Assembly (NCBI GenBank): GCA_009015555.1
Contig: GCA_009015555.1_3613.1
Origin: a phage
Strand: one strand, 5' to 3'
DNA length: 64,000 nt
In this document: positions 11,084 to 38,330 of the stretch, one piece after another
How the letters are laid out: each line of letters opens with the position of its first letter
Position numbering within the stretch: the first letter of the stretch is position 1
Program-made: the position numbers and the translations under genes
Notes under the pieces: generated by a model
What the model saw: only the letters and a program-made list of their open reading frames with translations
Databases searched by the model: none
What the model was told of the DNA's origin: nothing

Positions 11084-12505
11084 ATGGCTGAATATCAAGA
11101 CAAGGTTGTTGACGTTGAGGTTAGCCTTGGCACTCAACCAATCGACACCGTTGGCTTTGAAACCCCGATGTTCCTGGCAATGCACGGCAACTTCCCAGAG
11201 CGTATTCGTTTCTACGTGTCCACTGCTGGGATGGTTGCTGATGGATTTGCAGTAGGTTCCCCGGCATATCAGTTTGCCACCAACGCATTCGCAGGGAACT
11301 TCGCCCCGCAGCGTGTGGCAATCGGACGTATGTCTCTGGAATCTACACGTGTGGACTTCACCGGGACCGCAAACACCGAACAGGTTGTCGTTAATATTAC
11401 CTTGAACAAGATGGTCAAGGCTGTTAAAATTAACGTACTGCCTGGAAACACCCCAGCCCAGATTGCTACGGCACTGGCTGATGCAGTTACCGCAGATGCA
11501 GATTTGACTGGCAAAGTCACTGCTGTTGCGAATGGGACTTATGTGACCATTTCAGCGGTATCTCCGAACGTGGTTAGCGTAGGTAAAGGCGCAGGTACTT
11601 ATAAGATCGTAAACGAATCTGGTGAGACTGTTGCAACTGCCCTGCCGTTCGTTCTTGCAGAGAACCACAACTGGTACTTCCTGTCAACGGAAGCCCGTTC
11701 TGATGCAGACATCGTTGCTGCCGCAGAGTTCTCCAAAGCGAACTACAAGCTGCACGTTTACAACTCCACCGATGTGGACGCATACGCCCCCGAGAACTCC
11801 GCTGCCTCCGTGTTCGACACGTTGAAGGCTCTGAGTTATGACTCTCTGGGAACATCCGACGCAGGTGCTGACGTTGACTTCACCGAAGGCTCTGTCATCG
11901 GCGCGATGGCTGCGAACGATCCTTCTTACGGCGACTCCTTGCACCTGAAAACGATGCCGGGTATGGTTCCGTTTGCTGGCTCCGACACTCAGCGTTCCAA
12001 CGCTTGGTCTCGTAACGCAAACATCTACCGTTCCCTGTACGGTGGTGGTAGCTACATCGAAGGTAAAACTTCTTCTGGGCAGTACGTTGACGTGATTCGC
12101 TTCTCCCATTGGGTTAAATTCCGTATGGAAGAATCCGTGTTCGCGTACATGAAGCGCCGTTCTGACATGGGTCTGTCCATGAAGATGAGCGACGAAGACC
12201 TGCCTGTACTGAAGTCTGTTCTGATGAACAACCCGATCAACATCGGTATTCGTAATGGTGGTATTCTGACTGGCTACGACGCTGAAAACAAAGTGTCCTA
12301 CGACCCGACGATCACTATTCCGAAACGCGCCCAGATCCCGACGAATGACCTTGCTGCACGTATCCTGCGTGACGTGAAGGTAGAGCTTGTGTACAACAAC
12401 TCTCTGCACTACGTTAAGATCCGCGCTTCCGTTGTACTGGATCGCCCGGCGGGCCAGAGCACCAACGCTCAGGCCCCGATGTCTTCCTCTGCTGTAGGAG
12501 TGTAA
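11084..12505 (+). CDS. tail sheath-like protein
   Basis: 473 aa; N-terminus MAEYQDKVVDVEV resembles sheath N-termini; followed by 160-aa tube-size gene, frameshifted chaperone pair and tape measure. Confidence 0.5.
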   Translation: MAEYQDKVVDVEVSLGTQPIDTVGFETPMFLAMHGNFPERIRFYVSTAGMVADGFAVGSPAYQFATNAFAGNFAPQRVAIGRMSLESTRVDFTGTANTEQVVVNITLNKMVKAVKINVLPGNTPAQIATALADAVTADADLTGKVTAVANGTYVTISAVSPNVVSVGKGAGTYKIVNESGETVATALPFVLAENHNWYFLSTEARSDADIVAAAEFSKANYKLHVYNSTDVDAYAPENSAASVFDTLKALSYDSLGTSDAGADVDFTEGSVIGAMAANDPSYGDSLHLKTMPGMVPFAGSDTQRSNAWSRNANIYRSLYGGGSYIEGKTSSGQYVDVIRFSHWVKFRMEESVFAYMKRRSDMGLSMKMSDEDLPVLKSVLMNNPINIGIRNGGILTGYDAENKVSYDPTITIPKRAQIPTNDLAARILRDVKVELVYNNSLHYVKIRASVVLDRPAGQSTNAQAPMSSSAVGV

Positions 12506-12508
12506 TAG

Positions 12509-12991
12509 ATGCTGAACCAATCCAAAATCTTGACGATGCAGGCGTATGACCCTGCGAAAGTCCTCGTCTTTATTGGTGGACAGCGTGTCTCTGGATTTGC
12601 AGCGGATACGAAGATCGTTATTACTCGTAACAACGACAACATCACCGTTCATGCGGGTGTTGACGGCGAGATCAGTAACGCACTGTCCCGTGATAACACC
12701 GGGGTCATGACCCTCTCCCTCCAGAACACGGCCCAATGGAACGGCTATCTGGCCCAGTGGCAGCGCCAGGCTAACGTAACTGGCCTGATTTATCTGCCTG
12801 TCCAAGTGGAAGGTTCTCAGGGTCTGTCCCTGAACACCATCGGCTGGATTCAGAAGCAGCCTGACCTGAGCTACGGCTCCGAAGTTGGTCAGATGGACTG
12901 GGAAATCGGTGTACTGGACGCATGGCTGTCTCCTGACCAGATTCAAGGCGTCGCTGCCGGGATCACTGGTCTGGTTGGACTGGACCAATAA
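12509..12991 (+). CDS. tail tube-like protein
   Basis: 160-aa ORF directly after sheath-like gene; RBS GGAG. Confidence 0.45.
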   Translation: MLNQSKILTMQAYDPAKVLVFIGGQRVSGFAADTKIVITRNNDNITVHAGVDGEISNALSRDNTGVMTLSLQNTAQWNGYLAQWQRQANVTGLIYLPVQVEGSQGLSLNTIGWIQKQPDLSYGSEVGQMDWEIGVLDAWLSPDQIQGVAAGITGLVGLDQ

Positions 12992-13062
12992 CAACGTGAG
13001 CCACATGGATGTGGCCTTTTCTCACGGCATGGATTATTCAACAGAAGACACAGGAGTGTATC

Positions 13063-13539
13063 ATGTTTAAGGTTAAGAAGTCCACAGAAGTTGTTCTGTG
13101 CGGCGGAAAGCGTTTCACAATTTATCACTGGTCACCAAGCCAAGTGATTCGTAATATGCCTAAAATTGGTCGCCTGGTGGCGGTCCCGATGGGCACGGTG
13201 GCTGGCTCTGCCCTCTCAAAAGGAGAAGGATTCAGTGACGCCATCCCTACCGCGATCCTTTACATCCTCGACCAGATCGAAGACGGTGGTGAAGAGATCA
13301 TCAACATGCTGCTCGAAGGTGTAGAAGTAGACAGCATGGGTGGCCCAATCGACATTGACGTAGTTTTCGAAGACCACGTTGAAGACCTGATTACTCTGCT
13401 CGGTAAGGTAGTTGAAGTCAACTATGGCTGTTTTTTCGGCAAGAGCGGTTTCGGGACCATCGACACGTTCCTCAAACGTCTGGGGCTGGCGCGAGCGGTG
13501 GAACAACTGGACGAGAATCCGACCCAGACGGAAACCTGA
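13063..13539 (+). CDS. tail assembly chaperone (short product)
   Basis: Track ORF 13009..13539; ATG at 13063 has AGGAG 7 nt upstream; acidic small protein between tube-like gene and tape measure. Confidence 0.55.
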   Translation: MFKVKKSTEVVLCGGKRFTIYHWSPSQVIRNMPKIGRLVAVPMGTVAGSALSKGEGFSDAIPTAILYILDQIEDGGEEIINMLLEGVEVDSMGGPIDIDVVFEDHVEDLITLLGKVVEVNYGCFFGKSGFGTIDTFLKRLGLARAVEQLDENPTQTET

Positions 13540-13808
13540 TCCCGCTAAGTACCGTAGAGAAAGCACTTGAGTATGCACGGAAGAACTCTTCTCTAAAATG
13601 GTATGACTACCTTTACTTCAGGGTAATGGAGCGGTTCAAGGGTGTCAATGAGATCTCTATTGAAGCTGGCGATATGGAAGACCTCCTGAAGAAAAACGAA
13701 TACTTGGACATCCAGGATTTCGTACAGGAAGCCAAGCAGAAGGACATCGATCAGGCACGGAAGAATGCTGAACAAGCTGCCCGCACGAAGAAGTTTAAGG
13801 GAGGATAA
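13063..13808 (+). CDS. tail assembly chaperone, long product via programmed -1 frameshift at T_TTT_TTC (13431-13437)
   Basis: Slippery heptamer TTTTTTC in codons Cys141-Phe-Phe; -1 frame is open from 13416 through 13808 and includes track ORF 13626..13808; canonical G/GT-type arrangement before tape measure. Confidence 0.45.
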
Positions 13809-13810
13809 GG

Positions 13811-13848
13811 GCTGGAGTCGAAAGACTCTGGCCTTTTCTTTTTGAGGC
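13811..13848 (+). terminator. terminator-like hairpin with T-tract (possible attenuator before tape measure gene)
   Basis: GCTGGAGTC-GAAA-GACTCTGGC stem with wobble pairs followed by TTTTCTTTTT. Confidence 0.35.
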
Positions 13849-13872
13849 GTTATAATTGCCGGAGGAGGATCA

Positions 13873-16317
13873 ATGGCAAGTGGAAACGTGATTGTCACCA
13901 AAACAGTCAACCGTACAACGTTTGAGGTGGACAAATCCTCGTATGCCCGGGCGGTCAAACAGATCCGTCAAGTTGGCAAAGAGTGGGAGAAGGCATCTGA
14001 TGCAATCTCTAAACCAAAGAAAGACCCGGCTAAAGCCTACGACAAATCAGCCCAGCAGATGCGCCTGGTGAATAAGCGCTTGGCAGAAACCCGCGCCCGT
14101 GAAGAGAAACGCGCCTCTGAACGCAGCATCGCGCTGGCCCGTCGAGAGGCGAAGGCCAAAGAAGCGATCGCCAAGGTATCCGCTGCTCGTATTAAGCAGC
14201 AGGTACAGCAGATGACCGCCCCTCGTGCCGGAATGAGCGAGATGAAGAAGTTCTACCAGCAGCAAGAGCGTGAGGCCAAGAAGGCTAACCGTAAAGCTAC
14301 GACTGGTATGAATGCAGCATCCCGTCCGATGAACGTTACCCGAATCAACTCTCTCCAACTGCCCCCTCGTGGTGGTCAGGGGACCGGAATGGTGGGTGAT
14401 CCGAATAAAGTTTACAACCCGGAATTGATCGCTGCCCAGAACCGTGCAATGGCAGGTCGAATCCGCAGTCAGTCTCAGGCCCAGGACCGCAGAACCAAGG
14501 CAGAGACACGCCGCAAGGCGGCTGAAGCGGCTCGTGCAGCCCGCATCGAAGATGTTATGGCACAACAGCGTATTCGTTTGTCATCCAAGTATGGCCGCAA
14601 CTATGCGGGCCGTCTTGGTGGAAATGCCGCTGGTCAAGGTATCCAAGATCTGAACCGTCAGTTCCGTACCGGGGCGCTGTCCGCCGGACAGTATCGCCAG
14701 AGTATTCAAGCACTGGAACGCCAGTTCCGTTCGGCACAGGCAAGTGCAGGCGGGTTTGGGGCCGTCATTGGAGACATCCGCTCCCAACTGTTGGGCGCAG
14801 GTGCAGCATACGGTGTATTTGCCGCAGGCGCAAGTGTTCTTCAACAAGGCCAGTTCTTCCAGGGTATGGATGCAACGATGACGATGGTTTCTGATTCATC
14901 CGAAGAAGCTGCAAAAAGAATCCAGTTCTTGAAGGATCAGGCTTATCGACTCGGATTGGATCTTAAAATCGCTTCTCAGGGCTACGTGCAGATGTCCGTC
15001 AACTCCGACGGTATCCTGAATAAGGCTCAGAACGATGAATTGTTCAAAGGCTTCTCTGAGTACGCAACGGCCCTTCAGGTTGACCCGGTTAAGTTCCAGC
15101 GTGGTATCACCGCGATCGGGCAGATGATGGGTAAAGGCCAGATCATGGCTGAAGAATTGAAAGGCCAGTTGGCTGAAGGTATCCCGGGTTCATTGCAGGT
15201 ATTCGTGAAGGCGTCTCAGGAAGCGTTCAACGACACCACCATCGACGTTGAAAAACTCATGGATATGATGCAGAAGGGTGAACTGAAAGCTGCCAAAGTT
15301 CTGCCATTCGTAGCCAAATACTTCGCCGAAGCTGCCCGTAACGGCGGCGCGTTGGATAAGGCATTGCAGAGCAACCGTGTGGCGATGCAACAGATGCAGC
15401 AGACGTGGGTTAACTTCCAGAACGCCATCTTCCAGGGTGGTTTCGGCGAGCAAATGACCCGTGTGTTCCGTGATCTCGCAACAATCCTTGATAGTAACGG
15501 TGAACTGGCAACCAACCTCGGGGCCTTCTTCGGCAATGTGATCGAGGGGTTCTGGGACATGGTTACAGAGATCCACGATGACTTCGTTCTGTTGGACCGT
15601 ATCGTCAGCTACTATGCTGAGAAACTCGGTTACCAAGGTGAACTCCTCAAGGATGTTTTCAACTGGGCAGGGTATGCAGTCGGCATGGCGATCTTCGTCG
15701 GCAGTCTCTACAAAATCTTCGGTATCCTTAGCAAAATCGCTGGACTGCGTGGTGCTCTTAAAGAGATCCGTGGTACAATGGGTGGCGATATGGGCGGAGG
15801 CCGTGGAGGAAGAGGTGGTAGAGGCGGACGTGGGGGCGGAGGCCGTGGAAATGGTTGGGGTGCTCCTCGCGGGGGTGGTGGATTCAAGCTGCCTGTTGTT
15901 CCTGGGCCGTGGCCTATGGTGGCAGGTATCCTTGGATGGAACTGGCTGAACGATGAGGAAGTTAACGCCAAAGCTCAGGCTGTAAATGAGTTCATGGCAC
16001 CTGCCCGTGCAACCCAGTCCCCTATCGAGCAAGCACTCACGGGGGACATGGGTCTCTTCATGAAGACAGCGTTCTACTCTTTGTTTGGTTCCAAGAAGGA
16101 AGCTCCAAGCACAACCATCGATCCTGAACGTTTGGTTACCGCTGGCGCTTCTGGGCCATATCCGGGGCCGTTCCCAATCAATCAGCCTCCTCAAAAGGTT
16201 GAGGGCAACGTGACCATCGAGATCAAGGCTGGCGAATTGAAGAACATGATTCGTGCCGTTGTTGATGAGAACAACCAGTTCAACTTCAACATGCTCATCC
16301 AGGGTGGGCCTAACTAA
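13873..16317 (+). CDS. tail tape measure protein
   Basis: 814 aa; Ala/Gln/Arg-rich coiled-coil composition; internal GGRGGRGGRGGRGGGG tract; RBS GGAGGAGG; position after frameshifted chaperone. Confidence 0.75.
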   Translation: MASGNVIVTKTVNRTTFEVDKSSYARAVKQIRQVGKEWEKASDAISKPKKDPAKAYDKSAQQMRLVNKRLAETRAREEKRASERSIALARREAKAKEAIAKVSAARIKQQVQQMTAPRAGMSEMKKFYQQQEREAKKANRKATTGMNAASRPMNVTRINSLQLPPRGGQGTGMVGDPNKVYNPELIAAQNRAMAGRIRSQSQAQDRRTKAETRRKAAEAARAARIEDVMAQQRIRLSSKYGRNYAGRLGGNAAGQGIQDLNRQFRTGALSAGQYRQSIQALERQFRSAQASAGGFGAVIGDIRSQLLGAGAAYGVFAAGASVLQQGQFFQGMDATMTMVSDSSEEAAKRIQFLKDQAYRLGLDLKIASQGYVQMSVNSDGILNKAQNDELFKGFSEYATALQVDPVKFQRGITAIGQMMGKGQIMAEELKGQLAEGIPGSLQVFVKASQEAFNDTTIDVEKLMDMMQKGELKAAKVLPFVAKYFAEAARNGGALDKALQSNRVAMQQMQQTWVNFQNAIFQGGFGEQMTRVFRDLATILDSNGELATNLGAFFGNVIEGFWDMVTEIHDDFVLLDRIVSYYAEKLGYQGELLKDVFNWAGYAVGMAIFVGSLYKIFGILSKIAGLRGALKEIRGTMGGDMGGGRGGRGGRGGRGGGGRGNGWGAPRGGGGFKLPVVPGPWPMVAGILGWNWLNDEEVNAKAQAVNEFMAPARATQSPIEQALTGDMGLFMKTAFYSLFGSKKEAPSTTIDPERLVTAGASGPYPGPFPINQPPQKVEGNVTIEIKAGELKNMIRAVVDENNQFNFNMLIQGGPN
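15779..15900 (+). repeat. Gly/Arg-rich low-complexity tract inside tape measure gene
   Basis: Encodes GGDMGGGRGGRGGRGGRGGGGRGNGWGAPRGGGGF. Confidence 0.6.
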
Positions 16318-24370: not shown

Positions 24371-24709
24371 ATGGCTCTTGATATTATGTTGATTCTGAAG
24401 TCTCTTTGGGGTTTGGTGACTTTCCTTCTGTTGGGGGTACTCAAAATCTTTTATTCCGACTTCAAGAAAATGCAGGAGAAGCAGGACGCTCTTGAAAAAG
24501 ATCTGATTCGGCTTCGTGGTGAGATGGTCAGCAAAGATAGTATTGATGACATCCTGGATCGTAAGATCAAGCATATCACCGACACTATTGGCGACATTCG
24601 TGCCGACATCACTGACATGCGGAAAGAGGCCAAAGAAGAGACTAACGCTCTTCAGAAGGACATCCGCTCCGTACTTAACGTCATGTTGGAGAGTCGTCGC
24701 AACAAATGA
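24371..24709 (+). CDS. membrane-anchored coiled-coil protein
   Basis: Track ORF 24347..24709; ATG 24371 with AGGAGA; N-terminal TM helix then heptad-rich region. Confidence 0.5.
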   Translation: MALDIMLILKSLWGLVTFLLLGVLKIFYSDFKKMQEKQDALEKDLIRLRGEMVSKDSIDDILDRKIKHITDTIGDIRADITDMRKEAKEETNALQKDIRSVLNVMLESRRNK

Positions 24710-25164
24710 TCACGTCCATTATTTTTGGACTCTGCTTCGTCATCCTGGCAACTCGCCCGGATGCCGGGGCCAAGATTATGGCGGGGCTTGGCCTCGCCTA
24801 TCTTGTTCTCGAAAACCTGATGTTTTGGTTTTTCAGCGGGGCCGAGTTCTTCGACATCACGCTGTACTTTACCACAGCTTGGGCATTGGATTCAATACTT
24901 TTATTTGCCGTGGCACTCTTTGTCCGAGGGTATCGTCAGGTCGCTGTTTTGGCGCTGGCCCTGCCTCTGATGCTGGTACAAGTATTCGCAATCCAATATC
25001 CAATCTTATTCCCCGATTGGGTTTATTCCTTCGCCGTACAGGATGCACACAGGTATTTCATCGAGGTGTTTATCTTCGTCTATTCCTGGAAGGACAATAC
25101 AGTCTCCGAGTGGCTCAGAACAGGAACCGTTCTGGCACTTGTTATTGTTGCCCATCTGGTGTGA
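24706..25164 (+). CDS. polytopic membrane protein (about 4 TM)
   Basis: 152-aa hydrophobic ORF; start overlaps upstream stop (ATGA). Confidence 0.5.
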   Translation: MITSIIFGLCFVILATRPDAGAKIMAGLGLAYLVLENLMFWFFSGAEFFDITLYFTTAWALDSILLFAVALFVRGYRQVAVLALALPLMLVQVFAIQYPILFPDWVYSFAVQDAHRYFIEVFIFVYSWKDNTVSEWLRTGTVLALVIVAHLV

Positions 25165-25187
25165 CGCATTGATAATGAAGGTGTTCT

Positions 25188-31917: not shown

Positions 31918-32564
31918 CTTACTTTTGAAATTACCAGTTTTTGAACGTAGCCCTGCAACAGGGCGTAAGTTACACCACCCACATAACTACCGCCGACAGA
32001 GAGTCTCTCTCCGGCACCGAACCAGTTGGGAACAGAAAAGTTCTGAACTTCCCCGCTCACCATATTTCTCACACGGATCTGCCGAGAGTCCGGGTAAGTT
32101 TCGATCCGCAGATTAAAAACTTGGCCCTGATTACCATTGATCGAGCAACGAACATAATTTCCGCTGTTGTCTGTTGGGAACAATTGGTGCCCTCCAACCC
32201 CAACCATGCCATAATGCGCCAGTCCGGCGACGATCCTTGTGACGTAATCGCCAGAACACCACACCATCTGGGTTGCAGAAGGACTAAGGCTTTGGAAAAC
32301 AACCTCAATCACCATAGGATCTGTGGATAGATCCACTGAATACTGAGTTTGGAAATACCCTTGGCCTTGGGCAGGTATGAACTGCATGACCCTTCCAATC
32401 CCTGCAACATCGACTATCCTTGGGCCTGTGCCGACCAAAGAGAAGGTGTGGTTTTCAGACCAGTCCTTCAAAACAGTCTCGCCGAGAGATTGCCGTGTGG
32501 CATCCACGTAGAGAATGGCATCCTCTTTGCGAGATGACTTCCCTATAATCATTATCTCGTTCAT
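31914..32564 (-). CDS. N-tag family paralog E: ConA/LamG-like jelly-roll protein (N-terminus MNEIMIIGKSS)
   Basis: Track ORF 31914..32567 trimmed to ATG; LamG-like pattern; N-terminal motif shared with four other genes. Confidence 0.55.
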   Translation of the reverse strand: MNEIMIIGKSSRKEDAILYVDATRQSLGETVLKDWSENHTFSLVGTGPRIVDVAGIGRVMQFIPAQGQGYFQTQYSVDLSTDPMVIEVVFQSLSPSATQMVWCSGDYVTRIVAGLAHYGMVGVGGHQLFPTDNSGNYVRCSINGNQGQVFNLRIETYPDSRQIRVRNMVSGEVQNFSVPNWFGAGERLSVGGSYVGGVTYALLQGYVQKLVISKVS

Positions 32565-32935
32565 CAATTTCTCCGAGGTTTTAAAACACCTGATTTTGAA
32601 AGAGGGATCTCATCGGCATCTCTGCCTTTCTCTCCATCTTTCCCGTCCTTCCCGGCCTTTCCTGGTTTGCCCTCCGGGCCTGCCGGACCCGCTGGACCTG
32701 GCACATAAACATACTGCGGTTCAGTAAACGCTGCAATAAACAGCAGTATTGCCCAAGCAACACCATTCACCCACAGTGCAGGCCACATTGAAAAGAATAC
32801 CGACAGCGCCAGAATCAACATCGTATTCCGATGTTCTCTCTTGCGGGCCACGAAGTAAGGGACCAGCCAGAACAGTACAAATACCCAGGCCGAGCCTGAG
32901 AACAACGACCACATCACATCGACAAACTCTGTCAT
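32564..32935 (-). CDS. membrane protein with short collagen-like segment
   Basis: 123 aa; three hydrophobic helices then [27 protein letters not shown]. Confidence 0.5.
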   Translation of the reverse strand: MTEFVDVMWSLFSGSAWVFVLFWLVPYFVARKREHRNTMLILALSVFFSMWPALWVNGVAWAILLFIAAFTEPQYVYVPGPAGPAGPEGKPGKAGKDGKDGEKGRDADEIPLSKSGVLKPRRN

Positions 32936-37743: not shown

Positions 37744-37962
37744 TTACACCCCCGGTGGTAAAGTTACGCCGCCGACGCTACGGCAGGCTGACAGGTACTG
37801 GGCTTGCGCCCGTCCGGCGTGAGCACGAAGCTCCTCATTCTCAATGTTCTGGCACTCAATGAACTGGAGCATTTCCCACAGTTTGTCGATAAGGACATCT
37901 TTCTTCAGGGATTTCCAGTGTTTGCGGAAGGCAACCTCATCTTCACTCATCAGTCTTTTCAT
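37744..37962 (-). CDS. hypothetical protein
   Basis: Track ORF 37744..38085 trimmed to ATG 37962 overlapping upstream stop (TAATG). Confidence 0.45.
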   Translation of the reverse strand: MKRLMSEDEVAFRKHWKSLKKDVLIDKLWEMLQFIECQNIENEELRAHAGRAQAQYLSACRSVGGVTLPPGV

Positions 37963-38330
37963 TACATCTTCCTCATTTTCTTGATGTTTTTTGGGGACAC
38001 GTAAGAGATATTGTTGAAAATCTTCATCTCTTCGGTGGAAACGCACACATTGTCTGTTTCTGCACAGAACGTACTGCCGAGCCACACGTACATGCAGCGC
38101 TCATCGCCGATGCCGAAGCATGGCTTGTCCCGGAGGTCACCGAAGATAAAGTTTTCATCCTTGTCCATCGGTTTCCCGTCAATAAAGATAATATACCCCT
38201 CGTCCTTTAGTTGCTGAATCTCAAAGGCCCGGTCAAAACCCTTCATGAAGCGACGGTATGAAGACTTATTCATGAAATCACTTTCGTGGATGATTGCAGA
38301 ACTTACCTGCGTGATTTTGGTGTTGGTCAT
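37962..38330 (-). CDS. hypothetical protein
   Basis: 122-aa ORF with RBS AGGAAAAG; first gene after promoter at 38360-38388. Confidence 0.55.
   Translation of the reverse strand: MTNTKITQVSSAIIHESDFMNKSSYRRFMKGFDRAFEIQQLKDEGYIIFIDGKPMDKDENFIFGDLRDKPCFGIGDERCMYVWLGSTFCAETDNVCVSTEEMKIFNNISYVSPKNIKKMRKM

What the first reader, a model, noticed from the sequence alone, without database searches (positions are those of the whole stretch)
13425..13445. Programmed -1 frameshift site in tail assembly chaperone
Codons Cys141-Phe-Phe of gene 13063..13539 form the slippery heptamer T_TTT_TTC at 13431-13437. The -1 frame is open from 13416 to 13808 and contains track ORF 13626..13808. This predicts a short and a long chaperone product immediately upstream of the tape measure gene. 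It also means the 13626 ORF is not an independent gene.
Basis: partly seen in the sequence, partly recalled or inferred. Interest (0 to 1): 0.45.

Follow-up and report, generated by a model that had tools for sequence, protein, structure and literature searches.

The report
Unannotated frameshift in phage tail chaperone
A CR3-like phage makes a short and a long form of its tail assembly chaperone by letting some ribosomes slip back one base at TTTTTTC; this is a well-known phage device, but public records for this phage group annotate it as two separate genes.

Summary
The window is a Cronobacter phage CR3-like myovirus (Certrevirus, Vequintavirinae). The gene at 13063-13539 is a tail assembly chaperone (Pfam PF21822). 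It lies between the tube gene and the tape measure gene. T_TTT_TTC sits in frame at 13431-13437, and the -1 frame is open from 13416 to 13808. Four results point to a programmed -1 ribosomal frameshift of the lambda G/GT or P2 E/E+E' kind.

- The best-conserved motif of the downstream domain lies upstream of ATG 13626. The -1 frame has no ATG, GTG or TTG between 13416 and 13625.
- Substitutions in the supposedly intergenic stretch 13540-13625 fall mainly on third positions of the -1 frame.
- Nearly all relatives checked keep the heptamer at the same codon, down to about 28% protein identity. Two replace it with another canonical heptamer (G_GGA_AAG, A_AAT_TTT).
- Of 26 Phe-Phe pairs in the window's ORFs, only this one is encoded slip-compatibly.

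Predicted products are 158 aa (17.2 kDa) and 248 aa (27.7 kDa). I found no conserved downstream RNA structure. Many relatives carry a GGAGG 13 nt upstream; this phage does not. No inspected record annotates the frameshift. It is a new member of a known kind, useful for annotation and not surprising.

The parts
12509..12991 (+). Tail tube gene (context). It is the presumed binding partner of the T domain.
   Evidence: Pfam PF11681 (KPP10_Orf10, also listed as Phage_Tube_PhiTE) at E=1.5e-7, and phrog_280. It follows the sheath gene at 11084-12505 (phrog_205).
13000..13025 (+). Terminator-like hairpin plus T-rich tail between the tube gene and the chaperone gene. It covers the spurious alternative start ATG 13009.
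   Evidence: GCCACATGGATGTGGC followed by CTTTTCTCAC. Terminators are annotated at the same position in PATM and FBKp34.
13052..13056 (+). Shine-Dalgarno sequence AGGAG of the chaperone gene, 6 nt before ATG 13063.
   Evidence: Read directly from the sequence.
13063..13539 (+). Chaperone gene, zero-frame product 'G' (158 aa, 17.2 kDa).
   Evidence: Pfam PF21822 Phage_TAC_15 at 74.1 bits (cut-off 22), E=1.9e-20; phrog_3840 'tail assembly chaperone' at E=8e-68.
13431..13437 (+). Slippery heptamer T_TTT_TTC (Phe124 and Phe125, preceded by the last base of Cys123). P-site and A-site tRNA-Phe re-pair from UUU UUC to UUU UUU.
   Evidence: The same heptamer is at the same codon in 29 of the 31 related loci checked. 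It is the only canonical heptamer in the 13416-13539 overlap.
13447..13453 (+). GGTTTCG, a nearly invariant motif 9 nt after the heptamer (6 nt in Stephanstirmvirinae). It reads Gly-Phe-Gly in frame 0 and Arg-Phe-Arg in frame -1, so it is doubly coding.
   Evidence: In FV3 the change to GGTTTAG turns Phe into Leu in frame 0 but keeps Arg-Phe-Arg in frame -1.
13437..13808 (+). The -1 frame part of the long product 'GT'. The full product is 13063-13437 joined to 13437-13808 (248 aa, 27.7 kDa). A Gly/Ser/Thr/Pro-rich linker (about 13437-13535) is followed by the conserved T domain (about 13536-13805).
   Evidence: phrog_10409 matches residues 42-120 of this part, which starts 22 residues upstream of Met 13626.
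13540..13625 (+). Stretch annotated as intergenic in public records. It encodes the most conserved T-domain motif (ALEYARKNSSLKWYDYLYFR) and has no ATG, GTG or TTG in that frame.
   Evidence: Variable alignment columns fall 9/8/24 on codon positions 1/2/3 of the -1 frame. Alignment; ORF list.
13626..13808 (+). The ORF annotated as a 60-aa 'hypothetical protein' in public records. It is really the C-terminal part of GT.
13807..13846 (+). Terminator-like hairpin (13 pairs) plus T-run, directly after the GT stop and before the tape measure gene.
   Evidence: It is annotated as a terminator in the phiTE record.
13873..16317 (+). Tape measure protein gene (context). It is the presumed client of G and GT.
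   Evidence: Pfam PF20155 TMP_3 at E=1.8e-16.

Best explanation
This is a programmed -1 ribosomal frameshift in the tail assembly chaperone gene of a CR3-like myovirus.

Most ribosomes read 13063-13539 and release the 158-aa chaperone G. A minority slip back one base when tRNA-Phe occupies both the P site (UUU) and the A site (UUC) at T_TTT_TTC (13431-13437). Those ribosomes continue in the -1 frame to 13808 and make a 248-aa protein, GT. GT shares the first 125 residues of G and then carries a flexible linker and a roughly 90-residue T domain.

By analogy with lambda gpG/gpGT and P2 E/E+E', the shared G part coats the tape measure protein (13873-16317). The T domain recruits the tube protein (12509-12991). 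The fixed slip frequency sets the G:GT ratio needed to build a tail of the correct length.

Shown here: the sequence anatomy, the conservation, and the coding status of the -1 frame. Inferred: the slip itself, its frequency, and the binding partners.
For: 1. Identity and position. The G gene matches PF21822 Phage_TAC_15 (E=2e-20) and phrog_3840. The gene order is sheath, tube, chaperone, tape measure.

2. Anatomy. A single canonical heptamer lies in the zero frame inside the 124-nt overlap with a -1 frame that stays open for 123 further codons.

3. The -1 frame cannot be reached by ordinary initiation.
- It has no ATG, GTG or TTG between 13416 and 13625.
- The most conserved T-domain motif (KNSSLxW and its flanks) lies in that stretch.
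- The Met at 13626 is Leu or Val in most relatives.
- In 8 of 15 relatives with the motif, the first possible start lies after the motif. None has a good Shine-Dalgarno sequence: the best is -6.9 kcal/mol, against about -10 for GGAGG.

4. Substitution pattern among 7 genus-level sequences.
- In 13540-13625, variable columns fall 9/8/24 on positions 1/2/3 of the -1 frame.
- The annotated ORF 13626-13805 shows the same bias (27/22/54).
- The G-only region shows 42/18/107 in frame 0.
- Indels in the overlap are all multiples of 3.

5. Conservation of the slip site.
- T_TTT_TTC sits at the homologous codon in 29 of the 31 related loci checked. They come from Certre-, Seuna-, Vequinta-, Avuna- and Henunavirus, Klebsiella Iguana-like phages, phi92-like and phAPEC8-like Stephanstirmvirinae, Aeromonas Plateaulakevirus, Felix O1-like phages, nine IMG/VR contigs, and three metagenome contigs picked by G homology alone.
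- Protein identity to the window falls to about 28%.
- Barba5S has G_GGA_AAG and Vibrio phage 166E36-1 has A_AAT_TTT at the same place.
- T is in the -1 frame in every locus checked.

6. Codon choice. Given Cys-Phe-Phe, a slip-compatible encoding has a probability of about 0.52 x 0.31 = 0.16 per lineage with this window's codon usage. It is the only one of 26 Phe-Phe sites encoded that way.

7. Selection on the -1 frame directly after the slip. Phe130 and Arg131 of GT are invariant across 9 diverse sequences. The FV3 substitution keeps Arg-Phe-Arg in the -1 frame while changing frame 0.

8. Precedent.
- Lambda G/GT: ratio and mechanism (PMC5009743).
- P2 E/E+E': a T6G slip site (summarised in PMC3931495).
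- Vandenendeviridae and Andersonviridae, which are relatives of Vequintavirinae: a conserved GTTTTT frameshift site in the chaperone gene (PMC12846349).
Against: There is no direct evidence for the long protein; nothing here measures translation.

No stimulatory element was found for this phage.
- The fold of 13438-13540 is unremarkable (z = -1.12).
- RNAalifold predicts 0 pairs across Vequintavirinae.
- A genus-level consensus fold shows no compensatory change.
- The GGAGG found 13 nt upstream of the heptamer in many relatives is absent here; the window reads GTTGAAGTC.

The slip frequency could therefore be low. Conservation of TTT TTC is partly confounded by conservation of the Phe-Phe residues. 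The related loci are not all phylogenetically independent. The IMG/VR set was retrieved with a peptide pattern that included NYGCFF, and its TTTTTTC was located by pattern search only, without a reading-frame check.
Confidence: 0.9

Rival explanations
1. Transcriptional slippage. RNA polymerase stutters on the T6 run and adds one extra U to a fraction of transcripts. Normal translation of those transcripts then yields the same GT fusion, with no ribosomal slip.
For: The site is a homopolymer run (T6) that is invariant across most relatives. Adding one U to the mRNA gives the same protein as a -1 ribosomal shift, so sequence analysis alone cannot separate the two for this phage. The review PMC5009743 covers transcriptional slippage as a real mechanism in other systems.
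Against: Two relatives carry G_GGA_AAG (Barba5S) and A_AAT_TTT (Vibrio phage 166E36-1) at the homologous position. These are classical tandem-tRNA slip sites with no long homopolymer run, so the trait shared by the family is ribosomal slippage. The run must also be in the X_XXY_YYZ register, and it is in register in every locus where the frame was checked. From my own knowledge, not tested here: efficient slippage by bacterial RNA polymerase usually needs runs of about 8-9 or more. In P2 the T6G site was assigned to translational frameshifting (summarised in PMC3931495).
Confidence: 0.05
2. Two separate genes, as in the public annotations. ORF 13626-13808 would be translated independently into a 60-aa protein, and the heptamer would be incidental.
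For: All 19 inspected GenBank/RefSeq records, and 60 further records sampled for the T region, list two CDS or leave the T region blank. An ATG exists at 13626. A few relatives (LTH01, FV3, KE23, Av05, Tr1, KP13-16) have a possible start upstream of the conserved motif.
Against: - ATG 13626 has no Shine-Dalgarno sequence (-1.9 kcal/mol), and its Met is not conserved.
- The most conserved part of the domain lies upstream of it. That stretch has no start codon yet shows third-position substitution bias in the -1 frame.
- The positions of possible starts are scattered among relatives.
- phrog_10409 homology begins 22 residues upstream of the Met.
Confidence: 0.03
3. The T domain is reached by some other recoding event, not by a slip at 13431-13437. 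Candidates are termination-reinitiation at the G stop using a non-canonical start (CTG 13535 or ATC 13538), or slippage at another site such as GGT_TTC at 13447-13452.
For: The overlap is long; the slip site lies 102 nt before the G stop. GGTTTCG at 13447-13453 is as conserved as the heptamer.
Against: - No start-like codon is conserved at the G stop among relatives.
- C_GGT_TTC is not a canonical tandem slip site, because the P-site tRNA-Gly cannot re-pair with CGG (my inference).
- Residues encoded in the -1 frame between the heptamer and the G stop include the invariant Phe-Arg of GT. That argues the -1 frame is read from the heptamer onward.
- The synonymous alternatives that would destroy the heptamer are never used.
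Confidence: 0.02

Closest known systems
Bacteriophage lambda gpG/gpGT tail assembly chaperone frameshift (Levin, Hendrix and Casjens 1993; Xu, Hendrix and Duda 2004, 2013, 2014; reviewed in PMC5009743)
   Same: The gene pair lies between the major tail/tube gene and the tape measure gene. [quoted passage not shown] The second ORF has no start of its own. The result is a short abundant product and a rare long product that share an N-terminus. One relative (Barba5S) carries G_GGA_AAG, which I recall is lambda's own heptamer.
   Different: There is no detectable sequence similarity to lambda G or T; the Pfam family here is PF21822. The host virus is a contractile-tailed myovirus with a genome of about 149 kb. 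The heptamer is T_TTT_TTC. The slip site lies 102 nt before the G stop, so the overlap is long.
Bacteriophage P2 E / E+E' frameshift (Christie et al. 2002, J Bacteriol 184:6522; summarised in PMC3931495)
   Same: It is a contractile-tailed phage. The slip site is a run of six T (T6G in P2, T7G or T7C in relatives), the shift is -1, and the downstream ORF lacks a ribosome binding site.
   Different: No sequence homology was detected between this chaperone and a P2-type chaperone family in the Pfam or PHROG hits. The last base is C, not G. The P2 shift is experimentally proven; this one is not.
Chaperone (TAC-N / TAC-NC) frameshift proposed for Vandenendeviridae (Pseudomonas phage Adele, Pakpunavirus) and Andersonviridae (PMC12846349, 2025)
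   Same: These are related virus lineages with syntenic structural modules. [quoted passage not shown] The downstream 'hypothetical protein' ORF is reinterpreted as the C-terminal part of the long isoform, and the -1 frame is always open. The logic and the signal match what is found here.
   Different: In the passages I read, that paper did not report the site for Vequintavirinae, Stephanstirmvirinae, Felix O1-like, Plateaulakevirus or Barbavirus phages. The present window belongs to Certrevirus. I did not align the Adele locus with this one.

Membership tests
G/GT-type programmed -1 frameshift of phage tail assembly chaperones | The gene pair lies between the major tail/tube gene and the tape measure gene. 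| tested here: met
   Sheath 11084-12505, tube 12509-12991, chaperone 13063-13539/13808, tape measure 13873-16317.
G/GT-type programmed -1 frameshift of phage tail assembly chaperones | The downstream ORF overlaps the 3' end of the upstream ORF in the -1 frame and lacks its own start and ribosome binding site. | tested here: met
   The -1 frame is open 13416-13808. It has no ATG, GTG or TTG before 13626. ATG 13626 has no Shine-Dalgarno sequence and is not conserved.
G/GT-type programmed -1 frameshift of phage tail assembly chaperones | A canonical X_XXY_YYZ slippery heptamer lies in the zero frame inside the overlap. | tested here: met
   T_TTT_TTC at 13431-13437 is the only canonical heptamer in the overlap.
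G/GT-type programmed -1 frameshift of phage tail assembly chaperones | The slip site and the frame relation are conserved in diverged relatives. | tested here: met
   29 of the 31 related loci checked have T_TTT_TTC at the same codon. The other two have G_GGA_AAG or A_AAT_TTT. T is in the -1 frame in every locus checked.
G/GT-type programmed -1 frameshift of phage tail assembly chaperones | The region between the zero-frame stop and the annotated downstream ORF is protein-coding in the -1 frame. | tested here: met
   Variable columns fall 9/8/24 on codon positions 1/2/3. The conserved motif ALEYARKNSSLKWYDYLYFR lies there. The phrog_10409 match starts upstream of the Met.
G/GT-type programmed -1 frameshift of phage tail assembly chaperones | Two proteins sharing an N-terminus are made in a fixed ratio, and the long form is essential for tail assembly. 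| not testable with these tools
   This needs a western blot, mass spectrometry or ribosome profiling, plus phage genetics. No proteomic report was found in the papers searched.
G/GT-type programmed -1 frameshift of phage tail assembly chaperones | The G part binds the tape measure protein and the T part binds the tube or major tail protein. | not testable with these tools
   Inferred from lambda (PMC5009743). No solved structure of a relative exists; the best PDB sequence hit has E=0.28.
Pfam PF21822 Phage_TAC_15 (tail assembly chaperone family) | The sequence scores above the family's gathering threshold. | tested here: met
   74.1 bits against a cut-off of 22, covering residues 14-131 and profile positions 1-127 of 127. 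All 46 database homologues carry PF21822.
-1 frameshift sites with an RNA stimulator (dnaX-like: upstream Shine-Dalgarno-like element and/or downstream hairpin) | A stable, conserved structure lies 5-9 nt downstream of the heptamer. | tested here: not met
   z = -1.12 for 13438-13540. No consensus pairs across 9 Vequintavirinae. The genus-level consensus has 0 compensatory pairs. No Rfam family matches. A genus-specific structure is not excluded.
-1 frameshift sites with an RNA stimulator (dnaX-like: upstream Shine-Dalgarno-like element and/or downstream hairpin) | A Shine-Dalgarno-like sequence lies about 10-14 nt upstream of the heptamer. | tested here: not met
   The window has GTTGAAGTC there. 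Its best anti-SD pairing is -4.6 kcal/mol and ends 18 nt upstream. Many relatives have GGAGG 13 nt upstream at about -10 kcal/mol.
Transcriptional slippage sites | A long homopolymer run is the conserved feature, independent of codon register. | tested here: not met
   The run is only T6. It is in X_XXY_YYZ register in every locus where the frame was checked. Two relatives replace it with non-homopolymeric canonical heptamers. RNA-level heterogeneity itself could not be tested.

The most novel reading that the evidence does not exclude
The slip site may be one piece of a deeply conserved frameshift cassette shared by at least six myovirus lineages: Vequintavirinae, Stephanstirmvirinae, Felix O1-like Ounavirinae, Plateaulakevirus, and, from the literature, Vandenendeviridae and Andersonviridae. 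The cassette would comprise T_TTT_TTC, the doubly coding GGTTTCG 6-9 nt downstream, and in many lineages a GGAGG exactly 13 nt upstream. On this reading the GGAGG is a genuine dnaX-like stimulator, and the CR3/phiTE group has lost it. Those phages would then run at a different G:GT ratio or compensate in some other way. This would give a natural series for studying how frameshift efficiency is tuned to tail assembly.
Probability: 0.25. Interest if true: 0.45.

Novelty: new member of a known kind. Interest (0 to 1): 0.3.

Why it matters
The mechanism is textbook, so the value is mostly practical.

- In every record I inspected or sampled, the long chaperone isoform is missing and its C-terminal part is listed as a short 'hypothetical protein' or not at all. 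This covers rV5-like, PVP-SE1-like, CR3/phiTE-like, phi92-like and phAPEC8-like phages, several of which are used or proposed for therapy and biocontrol.
- About 600 phage records hold a homologue of this locus. Correcting the annotation removes a false orphan gene and adds an essential assembly protein.
- For anyone engineering these phages, recoding or codon-optimising across 13431-13437 would probably abolish tail assembly.
- The comparison also shows that one slip signal (T6C) has been kept across lineages with under 30% protein identity. An upstream GGAGG is present or absent between close relatives, which may be useful for studying how frameshift efficiency is set.

Tried and rejected
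- Downstream stimulatory structure. Single-sequence folds of 13438-13540 and 13438-13500 were unremarkable (z = -1.12 and +1.95). RNAalifold gave 0 pairs on 9 Vequintavirinae. On 4 Stephanstirmvirinae it gave only a weak stem that includes the heptamer itself. On 7 genus-level sequences it gave -21.6 kcal/mol with no compensatory change. Nothing here can be called a conserved stimulator.
- Rfam scan of 13300-13900. The only result was a sub-threshold chance hit on the terminator hairpin.
- Other slip sites. There is no other canonical heptamer in the overlap.
- Other in-frame heptamers in the window whose -1 frame runs past the stop. The sites at 32579(-) and 37986-37989(-) are ordinary neighbouring genes with their own Shine-Dalgarno sequence and ATG. 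I did not examine 25019(+).
- Search for an existing fused annotation. All 46 homologues found in the 5.8-billion-protein collection are 153-162 aa, so G only. None of the 19 inspected records has a joined CDS. All 60 sampled T-region hits are annotated 'hypothetical', 'none' or similar.
- Literature. No paper in the held library reports this frameshift for Vequintavirinae, Certrevirus, rV5, phi92 or PVP-SE1. The phiTE cryo-EM paper does not mention a chaperone.
- Failed tool calls. A profile search of viral contigs with the 9-sequence alignment failed because no stretch was conserved enough. A PDB sequence search found nothing significant.

Full report
**What the window is.** The 2-kb stretch around the finding is 98.8% identical to Cronobacter phage CR3. 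It is 85-98% identical to other Certrevirus phages (Vequintavirinae) that infect Cronobacter, Pectobacterium, Enterobacter and Klebsiella. The local gene order is:
- tail sheath, 11084-12505 (phrog_205);
- tail tube, 12509-12991 (PF11681);
- the gene in question, 13063-13539;
- a short ORF, 13626-13808;
- the tape measure protein, 13873-16317 (PF20155).

The gene at 13063-13539 matches Pfam PF21822 Phage_TAC_15 over the whole profile (74.1 bits against a cut-off of 22) and PHROG 3840 'tail assembly chaperone'.

**The observation.** It is correct.
- In the frame of ATG 13063 the sequence reads TGT TTT TTC. The heptamer T_TTT_TTC therefore occupies 13431-13437 in the X_XXY_YYZ register.
- The -1 frame has a stop at 13413-13415 and then runs open to 13808. 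ORF 13626-13808 is in that frame.
- The only error is the residue number. From ATG 13063 the residues are Cys123-Phe124-Phe125. 'Cys141' counts from ATG 13009, which one GenBank record uses. That ATG has no ribosome binding site and sits inside a terminator-like hairpin. ATG 13063 has AGGAG at 13052-13056 and matches the start used by homologues.

**Is it more than chance?**
- In 74 long ORFs of the window (19,111 codons) there are 48 in-frame XXXYYYZ heptamers, about one per 400 codons. About 0.1 is therefore expected in the 41-codon overlap.
- Only five of the 48 have a -1 frame that continues beyond the zero-frame stop. I inspected two of the other four, and both are ordinary adjacent genes with their own start signals.
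- TTT is the minor Phe codon here (31%). Of the 26 Phe-Phe dipeptides in these ORFs, only the chaperone's is encoded NNT TTT TTY.

**Is the -1 frame really translated from the slip site?** Four lines of evidence say yes.
- *No start codon where one is needed.* I built the hypothetical fused protein for 14 diverse loci and aligned them. The most conserved block of the downstream domain is A-x-x-Y-A-R-K-N-S-S-L-x-W-Y-D-Y-L-x-x-R. It lies upstream of ATG 13626, and the Met is Leu or Val in most relatives. The window has no ATG, GTG or TTG in the -1 frame between 13416 and 13625. That block therefore cannot be made by ordinary initiation.
- *No conserved alternative start in relatives.* The first possible start codon in the T frame is scattered. 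It lies after the conserved motif in 8 of the 15 loci that have the motif. None has a convincing Shine-Dalgarno sequence.
- *Substitution pattern.* In an alignment of seven genus-level sequences (69-93% identity), the stretch annotated as intergenic (13540-13625) has variable columns distributed 9/8/24 over codon positions 1/2/3 of the -1 frame. The annotated ORF behind it shows the same bias (27/22/54). The G-only region shows 42/18/107 in its own frame. The doubly coding overlap is flat at 16/12/17. All indels are multiples of three.
- *Selection directly after the heptamer.* The motif GGTTTCG (13447-13453) is nearly invariant. It gives Gly-Phe-Gly in frame 0 and Arg-Phe-Arg in frame -1. Phe130 and Arg131 of the fused protein are invariant across nine diverse sequences. 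In the rV5-like phage FV3, a C-to-A change alters frame 0 (Phe to Leu) but keeps Arg in frame -1. After this motif the -1 product is a Gly/Ser/Thr/Pro-rich linker of variable length, followed by the conserved T domain.

**Conservation of the heptamer.**
- T_TTT_TTC sits at the homologous codon, and T is in the -1 frame, in:
  - 13 of 14 GenBank loci picked from a tblastn ranking;
  - Aeromonas phage phiA047, Klebsiella phage FBKp34 and a Felix O1-like phage;
  - three metagenome contigs chosen only by homology of the G protein.
- Nine IMG/VR contigs also carry TTTTTTC at the expected place. That check was a pattern search without a frame test, and the set was retrieved with a peptide pattern that included NYGCFF, so it is not independent at the protein level.
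- The loci span Certre-, Seuna-, Vequinta-, Avuna- and Henunavirus, the Klebsiella Iguana-like group, phi92-like and phAPEC8-like Stephanstirmvirinae, Plateaulakevirus and Felixounavirus. Protein identity to the window falls to about 28%.
- The two exceptions are informative. Rheinheimera phage Barba5S has G_GGA_AAG and Vibrio phage 166E36-1 has A_AAT_TTT at the same place. Both are canonical tandem-slip heptamers and neither is a homopolymer run. This favours ribosomal slippage over RNA polymerase stuttering as the family's shared mechanism.

**Stimulatory elements.**
- I found no conserved downstream structure. Single-sequence folds are unremarkable. RNAalifold finds no pairs across Vequintavirinae. 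A genus-level consensus has no compensatory changes. Rfam has nothing. From my own recollection, the lambda and P2 sites do not depend on strong stimulators.
- Upstream, many relatives have GGAGG 13 nt before the heptamer. These include rV5-like, Av-05, phAPEC8-like, Tr1, the Vibrio phage and the Felix O1-like phage; the phi92-like phage and one Certrevirus-like contig have GAGG at the same spacing. This spacing falls in the range where, as I recall, a Shine-Dalgarno-like sequence stimulates -1 shifting in dnaX.
- The window, CR3 and phiTE have GTTGAAGTC there instead. The GGAGG falls on conserved Leu-Glu-Val/Ala codons, so I cannot say whether it is selected as RNA.

**Mechanism proposed.** Most ribosomes make G (158 aa, 17.2 kDa). 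A minority slip at T_TTT_TTC and make GT (248 aa, 27.7 kDa). By analogy with lambda (PMC5009743), the shared G part binds the tape measure protein, the T domain recruits the tube protein, and the slip frequency fixes the G:GT ratio. The binding partners and the frequency are inferences. Terminator-like hairpins directly before and after the chaperone unit (13000-13015 and 13807-13836) suggest that transcription is stepped down along sheath/tube, then chaperone, then tape measure. That would fit the stoichiometry, but I did not test it.

**Comparison with what is known.**
- The class is well established: lambda G/GT, P2 E/E+E' with a T6G site, and the survey by Xu, Hendrix and Duda (2004).
- A 2025 paper argues for exactly this arrangement, with an invariant GTTTTT motif, in Vandenendeviridae and Andersonviridae. 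It shows those families are related to Vequintavirinae. In the passages I read, it did not report the site for Vequintavirinae (PMC12846349).
- None of the 19 records I inspected has a joined CDS. The T region is 'hypothetical protein', 'none' or similar in 60 sampled records.
- All 46 homologues in the 5.8-billion-protein collection are G-only, at 153-162 aa.
- Papers on rV5, Certrevirus CB7 and the phiTE structure do not mention the frameshift.
- Felix O1-like records come closest: they label both ORFs 'tape measure chaperone'.

**Verdict.** It is a new, so far unannotated member of a known kind. I put the probability that the long product is made by a -1 ribosomal slip at 13431-13437 at about 0.9. 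The remainder is split between transcriptional slippage, independent initiation and other recoding. Interest is modest. The finding corrects the annotation of a large and practically important phage group and warns against recoding this site. It does not change any concept.

Noticed in passing
window 13401-13430; L010, L011, L013, L038, L039 and others: Many distant relatives have GGAGG exactly 13 nt upstream of the slippery heptamer. These include rV5-like, Av-05, phAPEC8-like, Tr1, Vibrio phage 166E36-1 and Felix O1-like phages; the phi92-like locus and L020 have GAGG at the same spacing. The window, CR3 and phiTE have GTTGAAGTC there. It could be a dnaX-like stimulator that the CR3 group has lost, or a by-product of conserved Leu-Glu-Val codons.
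   Followed up: partly
window 13000-13025 and 13807-13846: Terminator-like hairpins with T-runs bracket the chaperone unit, one after the tube gene and one after the GT stop. Terminators are annotated at the same places in phiTE, PATM and FBKp34. This suggests stepwise attenuation of transcription between tube, chaperone and tape measure.
   Followed up: partly
window 13009-13062; L002 1010-1540: The GenBank record of Pectobacterium phage vB_PcaM_P7_Pc starts the chaperone at the equivalent of ATG 13009 (176 aa). That ATG lies inside the hairpin and has no ribosome binding site. ATG 13063, with AGGAG upstream, is the likely start.
   Followed up: yes
L003 1857-2957 (phiTE); L014 1005-1378 (Barba5S): phiTE carries about 1.1 kb with two extra genes (phiTE_226 and phiTE_227) between the chaperone and the tape measure gene, which the window lacks. 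Barba5S has an HNH endonuclease gene directly after its T ORF. This junction seems to be an insertion hot spot.
   Followed up: no
(public records, not in the window): Several records look mislabelled. 'Campylobacter phage' A135, D1 and C2 (137-143 kb) match at the same identity and E-value as E. coli rV5-like phages. 'Enterococcus phage IME_EF3' is a 2,019-bp record that is 86% identical to this Certrevirus region.
   Followed up: no
window 37986-37995 (- strand), gene 37962-38330: C_CCA_AAA_AAC, which is two overlapping canonical heptamers, lies 24-27 nt before the stop. The -1 frame continues into the next gene. That gene has its own GAGGAAG and ATG, so this is probably coincidence.
   Followed up: partly
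window 32573-32579 (- strand), gene 32564-32935: T_TTA_AAA lies 15 nt before the stop, and the -1 frame runs into the next gene (221 codons). The downstream gene has its own GGAG and an ATG that overlaps the stop, so this is an ordinary gene overlap.
   Followed up: yes
window 25019-25025 (+ strand), gene 24516-25172: In-frame G_GGT_TTA whose -1 frame extends 62 nt past the stop (69 codons in all).
   Followed up: no
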